The translations under genes were made by a program, and so were the position numbers. A DNA stretch of 64,000 bases. Origin: Alphaproteobacteria bacterium. GTDB lineage: Bacteria > Pseudomonadota > Alphaproteobacteria > CADEGL01. The first letter of the stretch is position 1. The number at the start of each line of letters is the position of its first letter. This document shows, piece after piece, positions 5,226 to 63,660 of this stretch. The stretch lies in assembly GCA_050180485.1 (NCBI GenBank), contig JBFXED010000003.1, positions 23,654 to 87,653 on the forward strand. Direction: 5' to 3'. A model generated the notes under the pieces. That model did no database searches. It saw only the letters and a program-made list of their open reading frames with translations, and had not been told where the DNA came from.

Positions 5226-5272
5226 GACGGGGCGGCTTGTGGACGCGCCGCACGCTATCATATCGAATCGGC

Positions 5273-34351: not shown

Positions 34352-34550
34352 GACCGGTCTTTGCCCCCGGGGTCCGTCGTCGAAAAAAGCCTACAGGCGG
34401 GCCGGAAAACGCGCAAGCGCGCGGCGTGGGCTTGCGCCGACAAACCCTTCGCCCGGCTCGCAAAAATAGCGGTCGGCGGCCGCCTTGACGGGCTTCCCCC
34501 CGCCGGACATTATCCGCGCGCCTTTCCGAGGCACACGCATGCGTGGCTCG

Positions 34551-34626
34551 GGGCTGTAGCTCAGATGGGAGAGCGCCTCGTTCGCAATGAGGAGGTCAGG
34601 GGTTCGATTCCCCTCAGCTCCACCAC
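34551..34626 (+). tRNA. tRNA-Ala (anticodon CGC)
   Basis: 76 nt, GGGGCTGTAGCTCAGATGGGAGAGCGCCTCGTTCGCAATGAGGAGGTCAGGGGTTCGATTCCCCTCAGCTCCACCA. Cloverleaf with G3:U70, anticodon loop TTCGCAA, T-loop GGTTCGATTCC, encoded CCA. Confidence 0.85.
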
Positions 34627-40543: not shown

Positions 40544-40632
40544 CTTCGGCTTCCTTGTTCGAGCGTGATGGATCAGCCTGTCACAGCGCCGCGGTTTGCG
40601 AAACCGCCCCACCACTTGATTACGGAGTGAAC

Positions 40633-42204
40633 ATGCTGGGCAACGCGACGACGATCCGTCGGACGCTCGAGGAAAAGGCGCGTTCGCATCCCAATCGCCT
40701 CTACATGACGCATGAGGGCACGGCGCTGACCCTTGGCGAATTGGACCGGCGGGTGAACCGCTTCGCCAACGGCCTGGCCAAGCTGGGCTTCAAGGCGGGC
40801 GACCGCGTGGCCCTCATGCTCTCGAACCACCCGGACCATTTCTATGCCTTCCTGGCCTGCGCGAAGCTCGGCGTGGTGCAGGTGCCGGCCAACACCAACC
40901 TGCGCGCCACCAGCCTGGAATTCCTGTTCAAGCACGCCGATCCGCACGGCGTGATCGCGGACGATCATTTCGCCGAGCATCTGGTGCCGGTTCTGGCGGA
41001 CACGAAAGCCAAGCATGTGATCTGGCGCGGCAAGACGGCCGATGTGCCGGGCAAGCGCACCCATGCGTTTGCCGCGGTGATGGAGAGCGGCGCCGAGACG
41101 CCGCCGCCCGGCAATCCGCAACCAGAAGATGTGCTGTCGCTCAGCTACACCTCCGGCACCACGGGGCAACCCAAGGGCGTCATGGTTACCGACACTATGT
41201 TCCGTGCCTCGGCCTATGGCGCGGTGCGGCTCGGCGACATCAAGGCGGGTGACATCCTCTATCTCTGGGAACCGCTGTTCCATATCGGCGGCAGCGAGGT
41301 GATCGTTCTTGGCGTCTTCTTCGACATCACGATCGCGTTGACCGAACGGTTCAGCGCCTCGCGCTTCTGGCCCGAGGTGCGCGCGGCCAAGGCCACGCAT
41401 ATCCACCATCTCGGCGGCATCCTCTCGATCCTGATGAAGCAGCCGCCTGCGCCGGAGGACGCCGACAACACCGTGCGCGTGGCCTGGGGTGCGGGCGCAC
41501 CCGCGCGCATCCGCCAGCAATTCGCCGAGCGCTTCAAGGTGAAGGTTACCGAATCCTACGGCATGACCGAATGTTCCAGCATCACGACGGCCAACTCCGA
41601 GGGCGAGCCCGAGGCCGGCGTGGGCACTCCGATGCCGTATTTCGAGGTCCGCATCGTCGACGACGAAGGGAAGCCGCTGGGCGTCGGCGAGATGGGCGAG
41701 ATCCTGGTTCGCGAGAAGGAGCCCGGGTTCATCATGAAGGGCTATTTCCGCAACAAGGAGGCGACGGCCAGTGCACTCAAGGGCGGCTGGATGCACACGG
41801 GCGATCTCGGCAGCTTCGACGCGAAGGGGAACTACCACTATCTCGGCCGCAAGAAGGACAGTCTCCGCCGCCGCGGCGAGAACGTCTCGGCCTGGGAGGT
41901 CGAGCGGGTGCTGCTGACTCACGCGGCTGTCGAGGAATGCGCGGTGGTCGGTGTCGACACAGATGTCGGCGAGCAGGACATCAAGGCCTATATCAAGCCC
42001 GTCGCGGGCAGTGCGCCCGATCCGCTCGACATCATCAAATGGTGCGAGGCGCGCCTGGCCTATTTCCAGGTGCCGCGCTACGTCGCGTTCGTGGAGGCCT
42101 TCGCCAAGACGGCGACCGAGCGCGTCCAGAAGGAGAAACTGTCGAAGCAGGCGGACGGCGCGTGGGACCTGGAAGCGTCGGGCTACAAGCTGAAGCGGCG
42201 CTGA
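40633..42204 (+). CDS. AMP-dependent acyl-CoA synthetase/ligase
   Basis: Motifs YTSGTTGQPKGV, ESYGMTE, WMHTGDLG and LGRKKDSLRRRGENVS. Divergent from the crotonase gene. Confidence 0.85.
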   Translation: MLGNATTIRRTLEEKARSHPNRLYMTHEGTALTLGELDRRVNRFANGLAKLGFKAGDRVALMLSNHPDHFYAFLACAKLGVVQVPANTNLRATSLEFLFKHADPHGVIADDHFAEHLVPVLADTKAKHVIWRGKTADVPGKRTHAFAAVMESGAETPPPGNPQPEDVLSLSYTSGTTGQPKGVMVTDTMFRASAYGAVRLGDIKAGDILYLWEPLFHIGGSEVIVLGVFFDITIALTERFSASRFWPEVRAAKATHIHHLGGILSILMKQPPAPEDADNTVRVAWGAGAPARIRQQFAERFKVKVTESYGMTECSSITTANSEGEPEAGVGTPMPYFEVRIVDDEGKPLGVGEMGEILVREKEPGFIMKGYFRNKEATASALKGGWMHTGDLGSFDAKGNYHYLGRKKDSLRRRGENVSAWEVERVLLTHAAVEECAVVGVDTDVGEQDIKAYIKPVAGSAPDPLDIIKWCEARLAYFQVPRYVAFVEAFAKTATERVQKEKLSKQADGAWDLEASGYKLKRR

Positions 42205-52546: not shown

Positions 52547-53338
52547 TCAGCCCCGTGACATCGCCACGATGAACCGCGTGATGACGGCCAGGGTCTCGTC
52601 TGGCTTTTCCTGGTGCGGAAAGTGTCCGCATGCTGGGATCAGTGCCATCTCGCACAGCCCCGAAACCTGATCGCGGATGCGCTCGACCTGAAGCGGCGTG
52701 CCGTATTCGTCGTCGATGCCCTGAACCAAAAGCGTGGGGCAGCGGATCGCGGGCAGGCGATGCTCGCAATTCCATGTGCGGAACGCGGGCTTGCGCCAGG
52801 TGTCGGCCCAGGCCGCGAAGACGTCGTCCGTGTTGTCGCCATGGTGACGCATCAGTCTTTCGCGCAGTTTCGTCGTCTTATATTCGATGGCTGTGGCCTC
52901 GATGCCGGCAACGGTGCGGTCCTCGACGAAGATATGCGGCGCCTCGACCACGATCGCCAGCGTCGGCGACGCTGGCATGCTGGCATGGAGAAGCGCGATG
53001 GTCGCGCCATCGCTGTGACCGACCAGGATCGGCTCCGCGATTCCGGCCATCTCCAGCACGCGCGGCAGCACATCGAACGCCTCGTGGTCCAGATAGTCGA
53101 GCGCACGGTTGGGATTGGCCGGGTCCGATTTTCCGTGTCCCAGCCGGCTGTAGTTGAAAGCGGGCAGGCCAGTCGCGTCCGCCAAGCGTTGCGGGAAATC
53201 GCGCCAGGTCGTGACGCTGCCGAGAGCATGGTGAAGAAAAACGAGGGCGCGCGAGTTGGGCGCGGCCGCGCCGGCCCAGGCATATTCCAATTGCCCGTCG
53301 GGGAGGGAGAAAAAGGACGGTTCAGACGCCGGCGGCAT
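52547..53338 (-). CDS. alpha/beta-fold hydrolase
   Basis: Nucleophile elbow GHSDG, N-terminal LVFLHHALGS oxyanion region, C-terminal His in ACGHFPHQEKPDE. Confidence 0.8.
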   Translation of the reverse strand: MPPASEPSFFSLPDGQLEYAWAGAAAPNSRALVFLHHALGSVTTWRDFPQRLADATGLPAFNYSRLGHGKSDPANPNRALDYLDHEAFDVLPRVLEMAGIAEPILVGHSDGATIALLHASMPASPTLAIVVEAPHIFVEDRTVAGIEATAIEYKTTKLRERLMRHHGDNTDDVFAAWADTWRKPAFRTWNCEHRLPAIRCPTLLVQGIDDEYGTPLQVERIRDQVSGLCEMALIPACGHFPHQEKPDETLAVITRFIVAMSRG

Positions 53339-53789
53339 CCAACTCCGCCAGCCAACCCTTCGCCCAGGCCACACCCACTTCCTCCGGCACGTCCGTGCCG
53401 CTGGCGTCGTGCTGAAACACCTGGCCGATGCGCGCGGCGCCCAACTCGCCCATCACCTTGTCGAAGCGCTGGCCGCCATGGGTGTAGGTCTCGTTATAGG
53501 CACGATCGCCGAGCGCGATGACGCCGAAGCGCACGCCCGCGAGCGACGGACGGTCCTTCTCCAGCGCGTTGTAGAGCTTCATGGCGTTGTCCGGCACGTC
53601 GCCCTGGCCGTAGGTGGAGGTGCAGATCAAGAATACGCCCTGTTTCTGGAATACCGTCGGATCCAGGTTGTCCATCAGGATCAGCTCGGCCTCGCGGCCG
53701 TTCGCCTTGAACATGTCGCGGACGTCCTCGGCCACGATTTCGGCCGTGCCGGTCATGGTTCCGACGAGAATGAAGATCGGCTGGGGCAA
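53322..53789 (-). CDS. flavodoxin-family protein
   Basis: FMN phosphate loop ILVGTMTGTAE and LICTSTYGQGDVPDN. Probable TTG start at 53789 (GAGG 8 nt upstream), or ATG at 53756. The remainder of the 1186-aa ORF is antisense to acnA and rejected. Confidence 0.65.
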   Translation of the reverse strand: MPQPIFILVGTMTGTAEIVAEDVRDMFKANGREAELILMDNLDPTVFQKQGVFLICTSTYGQGDVPDNAMKLYNALEKDRPSLAGVRFGVIALGDRAYNETYTHGGQRFDKVMGELGAARIGQVFQHDASGTDVPEEVGVAWAKGWLAELDAAGV

Positions 53790-54002
53790 AAAGAGCCTCG
53801 ATGGTGCGGGGGTAAGGGCCCCGAAACCGGGGCGCGCGGCGGGGGAGAATATCGGCGTCGCCCCGGCAAAAAAAGGGGGCGCGGAATGAGGGAATTCGCA
53901 TAACCGCACGTCCGGTCTGGACATGAAACATCCCGCGACTATGCTGGCGCCCGCCGCGGCCGCCCTCCCGGGACCGGAGAGGCCGGCTCTTCGAAAAATG
54001 GG

Positions 54003-56708
<2,706 letters not shown>

Positions 56709-56719
56709 GCGGCCGGCCC

Positions 56720-57397
56720 ATGAATCCTGTCGACGAGGCCATCCTGAGCCGCCATTCGGTGCGGGCATTCCTGCCCACGCCGGTGCCGCTCGAAATGGTG
56801 CGCCACCTGCTGGCCGTCGCCAGCCGCGCGCCGTCCGGCAGTAACACCCAACCATGGAATGTCTATGCGCTGACCGGCGCACCGAAGGAGAAACTGTCGG
56901 CCGCGATCCTGAAGGCGCGGCGCGAGGAACCGGCCGAGGCGCACAAGGCCGAGTACCTGTCCTACATGAAGGAGTGGCGCGAGCCCTATCTTTCGCGCCG
57001 GCGTGCCACCGGCTGGGGCCTCTACAACCTGGTCGGTGTGACCCGGGGCGACCGCGAGGGCGCGCAGCGCCAGATGGAGCGCAACTACGTTTTCTTCGAC
57101 GCGCCGGTCGGATTGATCATCACACTCGACCGCGACCTGGAGCTGGGCTCCTGGGTTGATCTGGGCACATTTCTGCAGAACATCATGATCGCCGCGCGCG
57201 GCCACGGGCTGCATACCTGCCCGCAGGCCGCCTTCATGGACTATCACACGATCATCCGCGACCAGCTTGGCGTCTCCGAGCGCGAGATCGTCATCTGCGG
57301 TATGGCCATCGGCTACGAAGACACCAGCAAGCCGGAGAACAGCTTGCGGCTGGAGCGTGCGCCCGTCGATCAGTTCGCCCGCTTCTTCGGCTTCTGA
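56720..57397 (+). CDS. nitroreductase family protein
   Basis: 225 aa. N-terminal SRHSVRAF and APSGSNTQPW are typical of the NfsB/nitroreductase fold. Confidence 0.85.
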   Translation: MNPVDEAILSRHSVRAFLPTPVPLEMVRHLLAVASRAPSGSNTQPWNVYALTGAPKEKLSAAILKARREEPAEAHKAEYLSYMKEWREPYLSRRRATGWGLYNLVGVTRGDREGAQRQMERNYVFFDAPVGLIITLDRDLELGSWVDLGTFLQNIMIAARGHGLHTCPQAAFMDYHTIIRDQLGVSEREIVICGMAIGYEDTSKPENSLRLERAPVDQFARFFGF

Positions 57398-57682: not shown

Positions 57683-58219
57683 ATGTGGAAACTCGCGTCC
57701 AAGCTCGACCAGACAATGGCGCCCATGCCGGCCGTGTCCGCGCAGGACAATGCCGACGCGCTTCTCCTCCGCCGCGCGAGCGAATGGATGCTGGCCTATT
57801 GGCGCCGCGCCCGGGGCGACCAAGTCTTGCCCGCGTCATCCGCCCTCGATGATTTGTTCGCGACCGAATTCGGCGCCTTCTGCGTGGGCGGCCAGATTGG
57901 CCTGACCGAGGGCCCGCGCGTCCTGCGCATGGGCCGGCATTTCACCGAGGCCTTCGCGCGCAAGGACGCCGATCGCACCGGCGCTTTCGCCGCGGCCACC
58001 ATGCTTGGCATCGTCGTGGGCTTGGCGGGCGATCTGCAGATCGATCCACGACCTGTCCAGCGCGGCGGCGACTTCATGACCGATACCAATCGCATGGTGC
58101 GTTATCACGCCGTCGCCATGCCGTTCCGCGGCGGCGTGTCCGGCGTGCCCGCTTGGCTTGCTGCGGCCGAATGGCGGGTGGAACCGGCAGAGCATTTGGT
58201 TGGCCGAGTGGCGACTTAA
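57683..58219 (+). CDS. hypothetical protein
   Basis: 178-aa ORF with normal GC3 bias and no recognisable motif. Upstream of kup. Confidence 0.35.
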   Translation: MWKLASKLDQTMAPMPAVSAQDNADALLLRRASEWMLAYWRRARGDQVLPASSALDDLFATEFGAFCVGGQIGLTEGPRVLRMGRHFTEAFARKDADRTGAFAAATMLGIVVGLAGDLQIDPRPVQRGGDFMTDTNRMVRYHAVAMPFRGGVSGVPAWLAAAEWRVEPAEHLVGRVAT

Positions 58220-60301: not shown

Positions 60302-60967
60302 ATGACCGACAGCATCGATGCCCTCATTGCCGAGATCGAGGCCGAATACGGCATCGTCGCCGAGCGCATCGGCAAGGACAAACCCGATCCCCGCGTTCTC
60401 GCCGCGCTGCGCGAGGTACCGCGCGCCGTATTCGTGCCGGCCGACCGGCGTGCCGACGCCTATGCCAACCGGCCGCTGCCCATCGGCTTCGGCCAGACCA
60501 TCTCGCAGCCCTTCATCGTGGCCGTGATGAGCGACATGCTGGCGCTCACCTCGGACAGCCGCGTGCTCGAGATCGGCACCGGCTGCGGTTACCAGACCGC
60601 GTTCCTGGCGCGTCTCGCGGGCCGGGTCTACACGGTCGAAATCGTATCCGAACTGTCCGCGGCGGCGGCGGAGCGGCTGGCGGCGCTTGGCGTGTCCAAC
60701 GTCGAATTCCGCGTGGGCGACGGCCGCCAGGGCTGGCCCGAGCATGCGCCCTACGACGCGATCATCGTGACGGCGGCGGCCACGGGCGAAATCCCGCCTG
60801 CGCTGCTGGAGCAACTCAAGCCCGGCGGGCGGATGGTGGTGCCCACGGGCGCCTCCATGCTGGCGCAAGAGTTGGTGCTGGTGACCAAGGACGAGGGCGG
60901 ACGCATCGCGAAGCGAAACCTGTTCCCGGTCGCTTTCGTGCCGCTGGTGAAGGCGCGGCGCGCCTGA
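60302..60967 (+). CDS. pcm: protein-L-isoaspartate O-methyltransferase
   Basis: SAM motif VLEIGTGCGYQTAFLA and GQTISQPFIVAVM. 221 aa. Confidence 0.9.
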   Translation: MTDSIDALIAEIEAEYGIVAERIGKDKPDPRVLAALREVPRAVFVPADRRADAYANRPLPIGFGQTISQPFIVAVMSDMLALTSDSRVLEIGTGCGYQTAFLARLAGRVYTVEIVSELSAAAAERLAALGVSNVEFRVGDGRQGWPEHAPYDAIIVTAAATGEIPPALLEQLKPGGRMVVPTGASMLAQELVLVTKDEGGRIAKRNLFPVAFVPLVKARRA

Positions 60968-60993
60968 TCCTGTCCACTGTGTGACGGAGCCGG

Positions 60994-63660
60994 ATGAACG
61001 AACCGCGCGACGACGCGACCTTGCAGGATTTCGCCCGCGGCCTGGCACGCTGGGGCGACCGGCCCGCGATCGTCTCCGTTGCGGCGGACGATGCGGTCTC
61101 GCGCTGGACTCACGCGGAACTCTCGCGGTTGGCCTTGTCGCTGGCCACGGGGCTCGCCCATGACGGCGTAAAGCCGAGCGAGGCGGTCGCGATCCTATCA
61201 CCCAACCGGGCGGAATGGATTCTCGCGCGGCTCGCGCTTCTGGAACTGGGTGCTTTGGCCGTGCCGCTCGACGATATGCTGGGCGACGACGAGATAGCAC
61301 GCGGCCTGGCCCGCGCACGCACGCACCGCGTCTTCACAACCCGCGCCTATGTCGAGCGTCTGCGCGGCCTCCCGGACGGCGGCGGCCTCGTGCTCCATCT
61401 CCTCGACGAACCCGACGCGCAAGGGCCGGAGGCCATCGGCTGGCGCCGCCTGCTGCGCGATCCGCAACCGGCGGCGCACAGGGTTTCGCCGGACGCGCCC
61501 GCGTCGCTTTTCTACACATCGGGAACCACGGGCGCGCCCAAGGGTGTGCCGCTCAGCCACCGCAACCTGGTCGCCAACCTGGCGGTCCTGCGCGCGGGGA
61601 ATTTTCTCGGTCCCGACGACCGGGTGATGCTGCCCCTGCCATTGCACCATTCCTATCCGTTCCTGATCGGCATGCTGCTGCCGTTGGCCTATGGCGCGGC
61701 CATCGTGCTGCCCGCGGGGGTCACGGGGCCGGAGATCGCGGCGGCGCTACGCGCGGGCGAGGCCAGTGCGATGGTCGGCGTGCCGCGCCTCTATGAAAGC
61801 CTGGTGGCCGGTATCCAGGCGCGCGTCGCGGCGCGCGGTCCCATCGCGCGCACGATATTCGGCGCGATGCTCAAGCTTTCGCTCGCGGCCCATGACGGCC
61901 TTCGCCTGCGCATCGGCCGCCATCTGTTCGCGAGTCTTCATCGGCAACTCGCGCCGCGCCTGCGCCTTTTGGCCTGCGGCGGCGCATATCTGGAGCCGGA
62001 TATCGAGCGCATGCTGATGGGGCTCGGCTGGCTCGTGCTCACGGGCTATGGCCTGGTCGAGACTACCTCGATCTCGACCTTCAATCCGCTGGACGCGCCG
62101 CGCATCGGCAGCGCGGGCCGCCCGGCGCCTGGCATTCATGTCCGGATCGCGCCCGTGACGGTGGGAGAAGAGCCGTCGGCCGATGGGCTCGGCTCCGAAG
62201 GTCTGGGCGAAGTGCAGATCAAGGGTCCCAATGTCTTCGCGGGCTACTTGAACGACGAAGCCGCCAACCAGGCCGCCTTCACCGAAGACGGCTGGTTCCG
62301 CTCGGGCGATATCGGTCGCCTGGACGAGGACGGCTATCTCCATATCACCGGCCGCGTGAAAGAGCTGATCGTCTTGGCCGGCGGCAAGAACATCTCACCG
62401 GAGAACCTCGAGGCGCATTACGTGCAGGTGCCTTATGTGCGCGAGGTCGCGGTCCTGGAGCGGCGCGGCGCGCTGGTCGCTTTGGTGCGCCCGAACTTGG
62501 ACGCGCTGCGCCAGGCCGGCACCAGCCGCATCGACCAGGCGCTGCGCATGGCGCTGTCCGAATCGGCGCAAAGTCTGCCCTCGTTCCAGCGCCTATCCGG
62601 TTTCGCGCTCGTCAACGAACCCTTGCCGCGCACGCGCCTAGGGAAGTTCCGCCGTCATGCGCTGCGCGCGCTTTACGATGCGGCCGAGGCGGGAGGGCGT
62701 GAGAGCGCCGCGCGCACGCCATCCCCGACAGAGCAGGCCTGGCTCGATTCGTCGCGCGGGCGCGAATTGTGGGCATGGTTGCAGGCGCGTTTCCCCGGCC
62801 GCACCCTCGACCTCGACACAGTGCTGCAGCTCGATCTGGGCGTGGATTCGCTGGCTTGGGTGGAACTGGGGCTTGAGCTGGAGAAGCGCTTCGCCCTCAA
62901 GCCCGACGAGACCATGTTGGCGCGCGTGGTCACGCTCGGCGATCTTTTGCGCGAAGTGGTCGAGGCGCCTGCGGGCGGTGCGCTCGAGACCGCGCCGCCA
63001 GCGGACGAACCCGATTGGTTCGCGCCGCGTCCTGGCCGGCTGACCGCGTTCGGCTTCGTGCTCTATGCGCTCCTCTGGGTGCTGACGCGCATTCTGTTCC
63101 GCATGCGCGTGATGGGGCGCGAACATCTGCCGCGTGACGGCCAAGTCGCCTTCACCCCCAATCATGTGAGCGATCTGGACGTCTTCGTCCTGGTTGCGGC
63201 GCTGCCCTGGGCACGCGCGAAGCAATTGGCCTGGGGTGGCGATGTGGCGCGCCTGTTCGCGACGCCCATCATGCGCCTGATTTCACGTATCGCGGGCGTC
63301 TTTCCCGTCGACGACCGGCGTCCCACGCATTCCATCGCGCTGGCCCGCGCGGCTTTGCGCGCCGGCCGCAGCCTGGTCTGGTTCCCGGAAAGCTGGCGCT
63401 CTCCGGACGGGTCGCTGCAACGTTTCCTGCCCGGCATCGGCCATGTGTTGCGCGATTATCGGGGTCCTGTCGTGCCCGTGCGCATCGCGGGCACCTACGA
63501 GGCCCAACCGCGTGGACGAACATTCCCGCGTCCGACGCCGGTGCAAATTCATTTGGGGGCGCCTCTGTTTGTCCAAACCCGCGCGGACGAAAGCGAAGCG
63601 CAAGCCGCCGGGCGCATCGCACAAGAGCTGCGCGATGCGGTCGAGCGAACGGGCCTTTGA
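60994..63660 (+). CDS. tri-domain fusion: AMP-dependent ligase (acyl-ACP/CoA synthetase-type) + phosphopantetheine carrier domain + LPLAT/PlsC-type acyltransferase
   Basis: 888 aa. Adenylation motifs LFYTSGTTGAPKGV, TGYGLVETTS, WFRSGDIG, GRVKELIVLAGGKNISPENLE. Carrier motif LDLGVDSLAWVELGLELEKRF (DSL serine). Acyltransferase motifs NHVSDLD (HX4D), FPESWRSPDGSL, VVPVRIAG. Confidence 0.85.
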   Translation: MNEPRDDATLQDFARGLARWGDRPAIVSVAADDAVSRWTHAELSRLALSLATGLAHDGVKPSEAVAILSPNRAEWILARLALLELGALAVPLDDMLGDDEIARGLARARTHRVFTTRAYVERLRGLPDGGGLVLHLLDEPDAQGPEAIGWRRLLRDPQPAAHRVSPDAPASLFYTSGTTGAPKGVPLSHRNLVANLAVLRAGNFLGPDDRVMLPLPLHHSYPFLIGMLLPLAYGAAIVLPAGVTGPEIAAALRAGEASAMVGVPRLYESLVAGIQARVAARGPIARTIFGAMLKLSLAAHDGLRLRIGRHLFASLHRQLAPRLRLLACGGAYLEPDIERMLMGLGWLVLTGYGLVETTSISTFNPLDAPRIGSAGRPAPGIHVRIAPVTVGEEPSADGLGSEGLGEVQIKGPNVFAGYLNDEAANQAAFTEDGWFRSGDIGRLDEDGYLHITGRVKELIVLAGGKNISPENLEAHYVQVPYVREVAVLERRGALVALVRPNLDALRQAGTSRIDQALRMALSESAQSLPSFQRLSGFALVNEPLPRTRLGKFRRHALRALYDAAEAGGRESAARTPSPTEQAWLDSSRGRELWAWLQARFPGRTLDLDTVLQLDLGVDSLAWVELGLELEKRFALKPDETMLARVVTLGDLLREVVEAPAGGALETAPPADEPDWFAPRPGRLTAFGFVLYALLWVLTRILFRMRVMGREHLPRDGQVAFTPNHVSDLDVFVLVAALPWARAKQLAWGGDVARLFATPIMRLISRIAGVFPVDDRRPTHSIALARAALRAGRSLVWFPESWRSPDGSLQRFLPGIGHVLRDYRGPVVPVRIAGTYEAQPRGRTFPRPTPVQIHLGAPLFVQTRADESEAQAAGRIAQELRDAVERTGL

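What the first reader, a model, noticed from the sequence alone, without database searches (positions are those of the whole stretch)
60994..63660. Single-polypeptide acyl activation, carrier and transfer enzyme (AMP-ligase, ACP-like domain, PlsC-type acyltransferase)
The 888-aa protein carries all adenylation core motifs, an embedded carrier domain with the DSL phosphopantetheinylation serine (LDLGVDSLAWVELGLE), and a complete LPLAT domain (HX4D NHVSDLD, FPESWRS, VPVRIAG). E. coli Aas (established knowledge) is acyltransferase at the N-terminus plus acyl-ACP synthetase at the C-terminus and uses free ACP. Here the order is inverted and a carrier domain is built in, so a fatty acid could be activated, tethered and transferred to a lysolipid or another acceptor without soluble ACP or CoA. 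The substrate and acceptor are unknown, and the architecture appears little studied.
Basis: partly seen in the sequence, partly recalled or inferred. Interest (0 to 1): 0.55.

Follow-up and report, generated by a model that had tools for sequence, protein, structure and literature searches.

The report
Fatty-acid ligase–carrier–acyltransferase fusion enzyme
This gene encodes one protein that very probably activates a fatty acid, holds it on its own built-in carrier arm and attaches it to a membrane lipid; it belongs to a widespread bacterial family that has been noticed before but never tested biochemically in this form.

Summary
ORF 60994-63660 (+) encodes an 888-aa protein with three domains. 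They are a long-chain-acyl-CoA-synthetase-like adenylation domain, a Pfam-significant carrier domain, and a PlsC/LPLAT acyltransferase with all motifs. In the AlphaFold model the carrier serine, S619, sits at the N-terminus of helix II.

S619, the HX4D pair and the A10 lysine are invariant in 65 homologues from about ten phyla. The carrier is as conserved as the catalytic domains. In two unrelated phyla a holo-ACP synthase gene overlaps the start of the gene.

Direct comparison with E. coli Aas confirms the permuted domain order and the extra carrier. The acyltransferase is most like Aas-type modules. Partner genes in other lineages (a patatin phospholipase and a YegS lipid kinase) point to glycerolipid remodelling.

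The most likely function is lysophospholipid re-acylation from free fatty acid, without soluble ACP or CoA. This is inferred, not shown.

The architecture is not unknown. Myxococcus ElbD has the same core plus a reductase, and ElbD-like proteins without the reductase are mentioned in the literature.

I rate it a variant of a known kind that has been noted but not characterised, of moderate interest.

The parts
60994..63660 (+). Whole gene, 888 aa plus stop codon: adenylation domain, carrier domain and LPLAT acyltransferase in one polypeptide
   Evidence: ORF list. Pfam domains. An identical protein is called on MAG contig JBFXBR010000001.1.
60986..60989 (+). GGAG Shine-Dalgarno-like element 4 nt before the ATG. 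The gap after the pcm stop (60965-60967) is 26 nt, and no promoter or terminator was found in it
   Evidence: Sequence. Promoter/terminator scan.
61036..62667 (+). Adenylation (ANL) domain, residues 15-558, of the long-chain fatty acyl-CoA synthetase type. Core motifs: A3 at 61513-61545, A5 at 62044-62064, A7 GD at 62305-62310, A8 R454 at 62353-62355, A10 K551 at 62644-62646
61804..61959 (+). Helical insert of about 50 residues (271-322) inside the adenylation domain. It is absent from E. coli FadD and Aas
   Evidence: Gaps at this position in both pairwise alignments. Modelled as helices 283-303 and 308-319. Several positions are nearly invariant in the family.
62752..62964 (+). Carrier (ACP-like) domain, residues 587-657, a four-helix bundle
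   Evidence: PF00550 at 29.7 bits against a cut-off of 20.8. AF2 helices 587-599, 619-633, 639-643 and 648-657. PDB and NCBIfam matches are ACPs. As conserved as the catalytic domains.
62848..62850 (+). Codon of S619, the predicted 4'-phosphopantetheine attachment serine (DSL motif at 62845-62853)
   Evidence: Invariant in 65/65 homologues across phyla and in the 60-sequence alignment A1. First residue of helix II in the model.
62965..63033 (+). Flexible linker, residues 658-680, between the carrier and the acyltransferase
   Evidence: pLDDT below 50 for residues 661-670. Only 18-28% identity across homologues.
63034..63099 (+). Hydrophobic or amphipathic helix, residues 681-702; probable membrane-interface anchor in front of the acyltransferase
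   Evidence: Kyte-Doolittle 1.92 for residues 683-701. Single long helix in the model. Aligns with the N-terminus of E. coli Aas.
63100..63573 (+). LPLAT/PlsC-type acyltransferase domain, residues 703-860. HX4D at 63163-63180, FPESWRS at 63382-63402, VPVRIAG at 63472-63492
   Evidence: PF01553 at 54.7 bits. Best curated matches are Aas-type acyltransferase modules: 74.6 and 51.2 bits, against 40.4 for PlsC. Thermotoga PlsC 5KYM, E 9.8e-10. H724, D729, P798 and E799 invariant.

Best explanation
The protein is a self-contained acyl-activating and acyl-transferring enzyme of membrane-lipid metabolism. It works like E. coli Aas but is built like the core of Myxococcus ElbD.

Proposed steps:
1. The N-terminal domain, which resembles a long-chain acyl-CoA synthetase, adenylates a free fatty acid with ATP.
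2. The acyl group passes to the 4'-phosphopantetheine arm on S619 of the protein's own carrier domain. An AcpS- or Sfp-type transferase installs that arm.
3. A flexible linker lets the loaded carrier reach the C-terminal LPLAT domain. The helix at 681-702 holds that domain at the cytoplasmic face of the membrane.
4. The H724/D729 dyad of the LPLAT domain transfers the acyl chain to a hydroxyl of a lysophospholipid, most likely lyso-PE or lyso-PG, or possibly LPA.

The net effect would be to re-acylate lysolipids from free fatty acid without soluble ACP or CoA.

Shown here: the three domains, their catalytic residues, the fold, the conservation and the gene contexts. Inferred: the fatty-acid substrate, phosphopantetheinylation, transfer within the same polypeptide, and the identity of the acceptor.
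For: - Domains and motifs are all present.
- Catalytic residues of all three domains are invariant in 65 full-length homologues from Alphaproteobacteria, Woeseiaceae, Anaerolineales, Acidobacteriota, Geobacterales, Dependentiae, Clostridia, Verrucomicrobia and Melainabacteria.
- The carrier is as conserved as the enzymes (54% against 53% and 53%), whereas the linkers are not (28-32%).
- The AF2 model (pLDDT 87) shows a canonical ACP with S619 at the start of helix II, then a disordered tether and a long helix before the acyltransferase.
- Holo-ACP synthase genes overlap the start of the gene in Dependentiae (L054) and Acidimicrobiales (L062), with TIGR00556 scores of 58 and 62 bits against a cut-off of 45.
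- The adenylation domain is closest to long-chain fatty acyl-CoA synthetases by sequence and by fold. A-domain-only relatives in Clostridia lie next to FakB- and FakA-like fatty-acid genes.
- The acyltransferase domain matches Aas-type acyltransferase modules better than it matches PlsC, and is 31% identical to the Aas transferase domain.
- Lipid-remodelling partners occur in other lineages. A patatin phospholipase lies 14 nt upstream in Melainabacteria. A YegS/BmrU lipid kinase lies 2-9 nt upstream in 13 Blastocatellia loci.
- The Aas mechanism used for comparison is described in PMC11416262.
Against: - No biochemical data exist for any member with this exact architecture.
- In the window's own lineage the gene has no lipid-related neighbour. 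Its neighbours are pcm and an aminotransferase. No LplT-like transporter is linked anywhere I looked, and the Geomonas MFS neighbour is not LplT-like.
- The adenylation domain is of the CoA-ligase type rather than the FAAL or AasS type, so formation of acyl-CoA is not excluded.
- For ElbD, the only studied protein with this core, acyltransferase activity could not be detected in vitro (PMC9131029).
- The informative partner genes come from distant clades (25-34% identity) and may not carry over to this one.
Confidence: 0.55

Rival explanations
1. ElbD-like role. The protein makes a precursor of alkyl or ether lipids, or of another specialised lipid (for example by acylating DHAP or an alkyl-glycerol phosphate), rather than repairing ordinary phospholipids.
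For: It has the same A-ACP-AGPAT order as the ElbD core. Environmental surveys count such proteins as ElbD homologues (PMC9131029, PMC11868695, bioRxiv 10.64898/2026.06.23.733905). Blastocatellia, which have relatives, make ether lipids according to the sponge-symbiont preprint.
Against: There is no N-terminal reductase: the adenylation domain starts at residue 15. No elbB, elbC, elbE or agps-like gene lies nearby. None of the 120 closest full-length relatives has a reductase domain, and none of the 150 closest didomain relatives is of ElbD length. Pontiella has an ElbD homologue but no detectable ether lipids (PMC11868695).
Confidence: 0.12
2. The acceptor is not a lysophospholipid. The enzyme might instead acylate glycerol-3-phosphate or LPA for de novo phosphatidic acid synthesis from scavenged fatty acid. 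Alternatively it might acylate a non-glycerolipid such as a lyso-ornithine lipid or a lipid A precursor.
For: LPLAT domains also include PlsC-, PlsB- and OlsA-type enzymes (established knowledge). TIGR00530 (PlsC) also matches, at 40 bits. A lipid kinase that could supply LPA or PA precursors is coupled to the gene in Blastocatellia. One relative, P0213, carries an extra LpxL-type lipid A acyltransferase domain.
Against: Aas-type acyltransferase models score higher than PlsC: 74.6 and 51.2 bits against 40.4. No OlsA or lipid A family matched the acyltransferase domain. The LpxL fusion is a single contig at 3x coverage with a degenerate P-loop.
Confidence: 0.2
3. The carrier domain is vestigial or purely structural. 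The protein would then be an acyl-CoA synthetase fused to an acyl-CoA-dependent acyltransferase, with CoA as the real acyl shuttle.
Against: S619 and the surrounding L-G-x-D-S-L motif are invariant or nearly so across about ten phyla. The carrier is as conserved as the catalytic domains. It has a canonical ACP fold with the serine at the start of helix II. AcpS genes are translationally coupled to the gene in two phyla.
Confidence: 0.1

Closest known systems
E. coli Aas (2-acyl-GPE acyltransferase / acyl-ACP synthetase), partner of the flippase LplT
   Same: One polypeptide combines an ANL fatty-acid-activating domain with an LPLAT acyltransferase. The acyl group travels on a phosphopantetheine thioester. 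The transferase domains are homologous (31% identity over 167 aa, E 4e-13), including the N-terminal hydrophobic helix. The activating domains are 26% identical (E 2e-29). The acyltransferase domain's best curated matches are Aas-type modules.
   Different: The domain order is permuted. Aas has no carrier domain and uses soluble holo-ACP (PMC11416262). The adenylation domain here is of the FadD/FACS type, with an insert of about 50 residues that Aas lacks. There is no linked lplT. The protein scores far below the Aas equivalog cut-off, 150 against 886 bits.
Myxococcus xanthus ElbD (ether-lipid biosynthesis; Lorenzen et al. 2014, as reviewed in PMC9131029)
   Same: It has the same acyl-CoA-synthetase-like, ACP and AGPAT-like acyltransferase order, with a built-in carrier. 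The ACS and ACP activities of ElbD were confirmed in vitro. ElbD-like homologues lacking the reductase are reported in other phyla (PMC9131029).
   Different: ElbD has an extra N-terminal FAR-like reductase and sits in the elbA-E operon; neither is present here. Direct sequence similarity to ElbD could not be measured because its sequence was not retrievable. No reductase domain was found among the 120 closest full-length relatives, and no protein of ElbD length among the 150 closest didomain relatives.
Long-chain fatty acyl-CoA synthetases (E. coli FadD, Thermus LC-FACS 1ULT, Archaeoglobus FadD1 3G7S, Mycobacterium FadD13)
   Same: These are the best sequence and fold matches for residues 1-560. 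All ANL core motifs are shared.
   Different: They are stand-alone enzymes that release acyl-CoA. Here a carrier and an acyltransferase follow in the same chain. No FACS model reaches its curated cut-off.
Adenylation-carrier didomain loading modules (McyG A-PCP 4R0M, EntE-EntB 3RG2, PA1221 4DG9) and FAAL-ACP systems
   Same: An adenylation domain is followed by a carrier in the same chain that it loads. The model superposes on these structures over both domains.
PlsC (1-acyl-sn-glycerol-3-phosphate acyltransferase; Thermotoga 5KYM)
   Same: It is the only solved homologue of the C-terminal domain (E 9.8e-10). The HX4D, FPEx(x)R and VPV motifs are shared, and so is a helix in front of the catalytic core.
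   Different: PlsC is a stand-alone enzyme that takes acyl-ACP or acyl-CoA from solution. TIGR00530 scores 40 bits against a cut-off of 103.

Membership tests
ANL adenylate-forming superfamily (PF00501), long-chain fatty-acid-activating type | Core motifs A3 (P-loop), A5 (YGxTE), A7 (GD), A8 (Arg) and the A10 catalytic Lys | tested here: met
   YTSGTTGAPKG 174-184, GYGLVET 351-357, GD 438-439, R454 and K551. All are invariant or nearly so in 66 sequences. Pfam 238.5 bits.
ANL adenylate-forming superfamily (PF00501), long-chain fatty-acid-activating type | Orthology to a named FACS subfamily (score above the NCBIfam curated cut-off) | tested here: not met
   The best match, NF004837, scores 241 bits against a cut-off of 476. 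No model reaches its cut-off.
ANL adenylate-forming superfamily (PF00501), long-chain fatty-acid-activating type | Fatty-acid-dependent adenylation activity | not testable with these tools
   Needs an enzyme assay. The substrate is inferred only from the nearest relatives.
Phosphopantetheine carrier domain (PF00550) | Profile match above the gathering score, and a four-helix fold with the (D)S(L) serine at the N-terminus of helix II | tested here: met
   29.7 bits against 20.8. Helices 587-599, 619-633, 639-643 and 648-657 with S619 first in helix II, at local pLDDT of about 76-92.
Phosphopantetheine carrier domain (PF00550) | Conservation of the attachment serine across the family | tested here: met
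   S619 is present in 65/65 aligned homologues, D618 in 61 and L620 in 60. S619 is invariant in alignment A1.
Phosphopantetheine carrier domain (PF00550) | Actual 4'-phosphopantetheinylation | not testable with these tools
   Indirect support only: AcpS genes overlap the start of the gene in L054 and L062.
LPLAT / PlsC acyltransferase family (PF01553) | Motif I HX4D, motif III FPEGxR-like, motif IV (V/I)PV..G, and a motif II-like F-P-x-D-x-x-R | tested here: met
   HVSDLD 724-729, FPESWRS 797-803, VPVRIAG 827-833. H724, D729, F770, P771, R775, E799, R802, P828 and G833 are invariant. Pfam 54.7 bits. PlsC 5KYM, E 9.8e-10.
Aas (bifunctional acyl-ACP synthetase / 2-acyl-GPE acyltransferase, NF005959) | N-terminal transferase followed by C-terminal synthetase, with no carrier domain | tested here: not met
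   The order is reversed and a carrier lies between the two domains. Aas domain limits are 1-203 and 204-719 (PMC11416262).
Aas (bifunctional acyl-ACP synthetase / 2-acyl-GPE acyltransferase, NF005959) | Score above the equivalog cut-off | tested here: not met
   150 bits against a cut-off of 886. The LplT-Aas fusion models score 201 against 1221 and 167 against 1349.
Aas (bifunctional acyl-ACP synthetase / 2-acyl-GPE acyltransferase, NF005959) | Genetic linkage or fusion to the lysophospholipid flippase LplT | tested here: not met
   There is no MFS gene next to it in the window or in close relatives. The Geomonas MFS neighbour is not LplT-like.
ElbD (Myxococcus ether-lipid enzyme) | N-terminal FAR-like reductase domain | tested here: not met
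   The adenylation domain begins at residue 15 and no NAD-binding domain is found. The closest 120 relatives lack one too.
ElbD (Myxococcus ether-lipid enzyme) | ACS-ACP-AGPAT core in this order | tested here: met
   Pfam domain order, compared with the ElbD description in PMC9131029.
ElbD (Myxococcus ether-lipid enzyme) | elb operon context (elbB HAD-like gene, elbC, elbE NAD-dependent epimerase) | tested here: not met
   The neighbours are Kup, PCMT and Aminotran_3. No such genes occur in the other contexts sampled.
ElbD (Myxococcus ether-lipid enzyme) | Sequence homology to ElbD itself (Q1DC43) | not tested
Fatty acyl-AMP ligase (FAAL) | Closest similarity to FAALs, or a FAAL-specific insertion | tested here: not met

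The most novel reading that the evidence does not exclude
This family may be a general, self-sufficient bacterial "Lands-cycle" enzyme: a route, separate from Aas/LplT, FadD and FakAB-PlsX, that puts free fatty acids straight back into membrane phospholipids. Because the acyl group would stay on a carrier inside the protein, it would never mix with the AcpP or CoA pools. The family is spread over about ten phyla, including the reduced-genome Dependentiae.
Probability: 0.4. Interest if true: 0.55.

Novelty: new variant of a known kind. Interest (0 to 1): 0.4.

Why it matters
If the proposed chemistry is right, many bacteria repair or remodel their membrane with a single protein that needs only ATP, a free fatty acid and a lysolipid. 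They include Rhodospirillales-type Alphaproteobacteria, Acidobacteriota, Geobacterales, Verrucomicrobia, Melainabacteria and Dependentiae.

This would add a route for fatty-acid incorporation that standard pathway reconstructions miss, because they annotate the gene only as "AMP-binding protein" or "long-chain acyl-CoA synthetase".

It also bears on environmental lipid studies. Those studies score such genes as "ElbD homologues" and take them as evidence of ether-lipid capacity. A reductase-less form acting on ordinary ester lipids would make that inference unsafe.

A self-loading acyltransferase could also be a compact tool for putting chosen fatty acids into phospholipids.

Tried and rejected
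1. **LplT linkage.** The MFS gene 26 nt downstream of the Geomonas homologue looked like an lplT-aas pair. It has no LplT model hit and only trivial similarity to E. coli LplT, so I rejected it.
2. **ElbD-type reductase in L062.** The 1438-aa ORF is a high-GC over-extension. The real start is at 5244, directly after an AcpS gene.
3. **Conserved operon in the alphaproteobacterial clade.** All-against-all clustering of the flanks of 80 loci found none. Annotation of ten tight neighbours gave unrelated housekeeping genes.
4. **pcm adjacency as a functional clue.** It is kept only within the window's own lineage (51-89% identity) and is absent elsewhere. I treat it as synteny, not as evidence of function.
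5. **LpxL-type fusion (P0213).** This is a single 3x-coverage contig with a degenerate P-loop, and there is no LpxL neighbour in any held locus.
6. **Retrieving ElbD for direct comparison.** I ran no further search on a low-probability retrieval.
8. **RNA elements.** There is no Rfam element near the gene.
Full report
**1. The observation.** The window contains an ATG-to-TGA ORF at 60994-63660 on the + strand, encoding 888 aa. GGAG lies at 60986-60989, 4 nt before the start codon. The stop codon of the upstream pcm gene is 26 nt away. No promoter-like or terminator-like site lies between the two genes.

Pfam finds four matches:
- AMP-binding, residues 15-419: 238.5 bits.
- AMP-binding_C, residues 472-551: 21.2 bits, just below its cut-off.
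- PP-binding, residues 601-653: 29.7 bits against a cut-off of 20.8.
- Acyltransferase PF01553, residues 703-831: 54.7 bits against a cut-off of 23.

An identical protein is called on a 497-kb contig of a MAG, GCA_050183015.1. The closest named relatives are from "Alphaproteobacteria bacterium" MAGs.

**2. All three domains look functional.**

I aligned 66 sequences covering Rhodospirillales- and Kiloniellales-type Alphaproteobacteria, Woeseiaceae, Anaerolineales, Chthoniobacterales, Melainabacteria, Acidobacteriota, Geobacterales, Dependentiae, Clostridia and Verrucomicrobia. One of them (L025) is a partial sequence, so counts are out of 65 where it has a gap.
- The P-loop S-G-T, E356, G438-D439 and R454 are invariant in all 66.
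- The A10 lysine K551 is present in 65 of 65.
- The carrier serine S619 is present in 65 of 65.
- H724 and D729 of HX4D, and P798-E799 of motif III, are present in 65 of 65.

Pfam confirms the same three-domain architecture in seven of the most distant members.

Conservation by region also supports a working carrier.

| Region | Close family | All phyla |
|---|---|---|
| Carrier | 54% | 36% |
| Adenylation domain (residues 15-455) | 53% | 40% |
| Acyltransferase domain | 53% | 40% |
| Linkers | 28-32% | 18-23% |

The AlphaFold2 model has mean pLDDT 87. It gives a canonical four-helix ACP with S619 as the first residue of helix II. A disordered tether (661-680) and a 22-residue helix (681-702) then precede the acyltransferase fold. 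That helix is the only strongly hydrophobic segment outside the adenylation core. It aligns with the N-terminus of E. coli Aas.

**3. What each domain resembles.**

*Adenylation half.* It is closest to long-chain fatty acyl-CoA synthetases.
- The best NCBIfam model is NF004837.
- The best PDB sequence hits are CoA ligases.
- The top Foldseek hit is Thermus LC-FACS, 1ULT.
- It aligns end-to-end with E. coli FadD at 136 bits. This is better than its match to the Aas synthetase module, at 112 bits.
- It carries a helical insert of about 50 residues (271-322) that both E. coli proteins lack.

*Carrier.* It resembles fatty-acid-type ACPs.

*Acyltransferase domain.* Taken alone, it matches Aas-type transferase modules best: NF006386 at 74.6 bits and NF005959 at 51.2 bits. 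Generic PlsC (TIGR00530) follows at 40.4 bits. Its only solved homologue is Thermotoga PlsC, 5KYM.

**4. Direct comparison with Aas.** I took the E. coli K-12 Aas sequence from the annotated genome and compared it with the window protein.
- Window residues 689-848 match Aas residues 1-161 (31% identity).
- Window residues 97-473 match Aas residues 290-630 (26% identity).
- Nothing in Aas matches the carrier.

The protein is not an Aas orthologue: it scores 150 bits against the 886-bit equivalog cut-off, and the adenylation domain is of a different subtype.

**5. Genomic context.**

In the window's own lineage the order is aconitase, nitroreductase, a hypothetical gene, Kup or HtpG, PCMT, then the target gene. 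This order is kept down to 51% identity. None of these neighbours is lipid-related.

In relatives of 40-48% identity the neighbours are unrelated housekeeping genes. No flank family recurs among them. The gene therefore behaves as a stand-alone housekeeping-type gene, not as part of a biosynthetic cluster.

Distant clades give more information.
- Dependentiae: an AcpS-type holo-ACP synthase overlaps the gene's start by 8 nt.
- Acidimicrobiales: an AcpS gene shares an ATGA overlap with the gene's start.
- Melainabacteria: a patatin-like phospholipase ends 14 nt upstream.
- Blastocatellia: in 13 loci a YegS/BmrU-family lipid kinase ends 2-9 nt upstream.
- Clostridia: A-domain-only relatives lie next to DegV (FakB-like) and FakA-like genes.

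Together these contexts support three points: the carrier is phosphopantetheinylated, the substrate is a free fatty acid, and the product belongs to glycerolipid turnover.

**6. Mechanism.** The best-supported reading has four steps.
1. ATP-dependent adenylation of a long-chain fatty acid.
2. Thioesterification to the Ppant arm on S619 of the protein's own carrier.
3. Delivery of the loaded carrier, through the flexible tether, to the membrane-apposed LPLAT domain.
4. H724/D729-catalysed O-acylation of a lysophospholipid.

This works like Aas, whose mechanism is described in PMC11416262, but without soluble ACP.

The domain inventory, residues, fold, conservation and contexts are shown here. 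The substrate, the Ppant modification, the transfer within the same polypeptide and the acceptor are inferred. I put about 0.75 on the activate-tether-transfer logic and about 0.55 on the full statement, including a lysophospholipid acceptor.

The rivals are:
- an ElbD-like role in specialised or ether lipids (0.12);
- a different acceptor such as G3P, LPA or a non-glycerolipid (0.2);
- a vestigial carrier with CoA as the real shuttle (0.1).

**7. Comparison with what is known, and novelty.**

The architecture is not unknown. Myxococcus ElbD has the order reductase, acyl-CoA-synthetase-like domain, ACP, AGPAT. Its ACS and ACP activities were shown in vitro, but its acyltransferase activity was not detected. 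"ElbD-like homologues" lacking the reductase are reported in other phyla, without characterisation (PMC9131029).

Environmental studies count such proteins as ElbD homologues by BLAST. One of them notes that Pontiella has such a gene but no detectable ether lipids (PMC11868695). A FAAL study mentions bacterial fusions with lysophospholipid acyltransferases in passing (PMC8460268). I found no paper that characterises the three-domain form.

The family is large.
- The genome scan found 583 stretches encoding relatives. That count includes proteins that match only the adenylation domain.
- The carrier-acyltransferase didomain defines 258 clusters (50% identity) at E <= 1e-30. The full-length listed hits carry it at about residue 545-880, and none is of ElbD length.

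I therefore class the protein as a variant of a known kind (Aas- and ElbD-type fused acyl-activating acyltransferases). The variant has been noticed but never studied. A lipid biochemist would find a self-loading Aas analogue worthwhile but not startling, so I rate interest at about 0.4.

**8. Limits.**
- ElbD itself could not be retrieved for a direct alignment.
- Whole-model structure searches were saturated by adenylation-domain hits.
- The informative partner genes come from clades that are only 25-34% identical to the window protein.

Noticed in passing
window 60302-60967 (+) and 60994-63660 (+); also L081, L082, L088: The pcm (protein-L-isoaspartate O-methyltransferase) gene sits directly upstream of the target, with a 13-70 nt gap, in every relative of 51-89% identity examined. 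Genes on either side of the pair change: Kup or HtpG upstream, and an aminotransferase, a chromate transporter or a Suv3-like helicase downstream. The two genes are probably co-transcribed. No functional link is evident.
   Followed up: partly
L085:4132-7575 (protein P0213): One relative carries an extra C-terminal LpxL/HtrB-type lipid A acyltransferase domain (PF03279, 182 bits) after the adenylation-carrier-PlsC core, and its P-loop is degenerate. It is a single contig at 3x coverage, so the fusion could be an assembly artefact.
   Followed up: partly
L054:7556-7903 and L062:4933-5247: AcpS-type holo-ACP synthase genes overlap the start codon of the three-domain gene in a Dependentiae MAG and an Acidimicrobiales MAG. 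This is an unusual position for the housekeeping PPTase gene.
   Followed up: yes
L036:6898-7902 and 12 other Blastocatellia loci (L031-L050): A YegS/BmrU-family lipid kinase gene is translationally coupled upstream of the three-domain gene. In five of these loci an NAD_binding_9 flavoprotein gene lies between the two or next to them. This looks like a candidate lipid-salvage operon.
   Followed up: partly
L063, L066, L068, L078 (Clostridia): Relatives that have only the adenylation domain (about 580 aa) are followed by DegV (FakB-like) and FakA-like Dak2 genes. This puts an acyl-CoA-synthetase-like gene inside a fatty-acid kinase locus.
   Followed up: partly
window 57683-58219 (+): A 178-aa ORF between the nitroreductase and kup genes has no Pfam match. 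It is nevertheless kept at the same position in relatives (L081, L082, L088 and the P0023 contig).
   Followed up: no
window 40555-42204 (+): A second, stand-alone AMP-binding / acyl-CoA-synthetase gene (549 aa) is 26% identical to the target's adenylation domain over 329 residues.
   Followed up: partly
window 53322-56882 (-): A 1186-aa ORF lies antisense to the aconitase gene (54003-56708 +). It is almost certainly a high-GC shadow ORF, not a gene.
   Followed up: no
window 34550-34622 (+): This is the only Rfam match in the window, a tRNA gene (66.6 bits).
   Followed up: no
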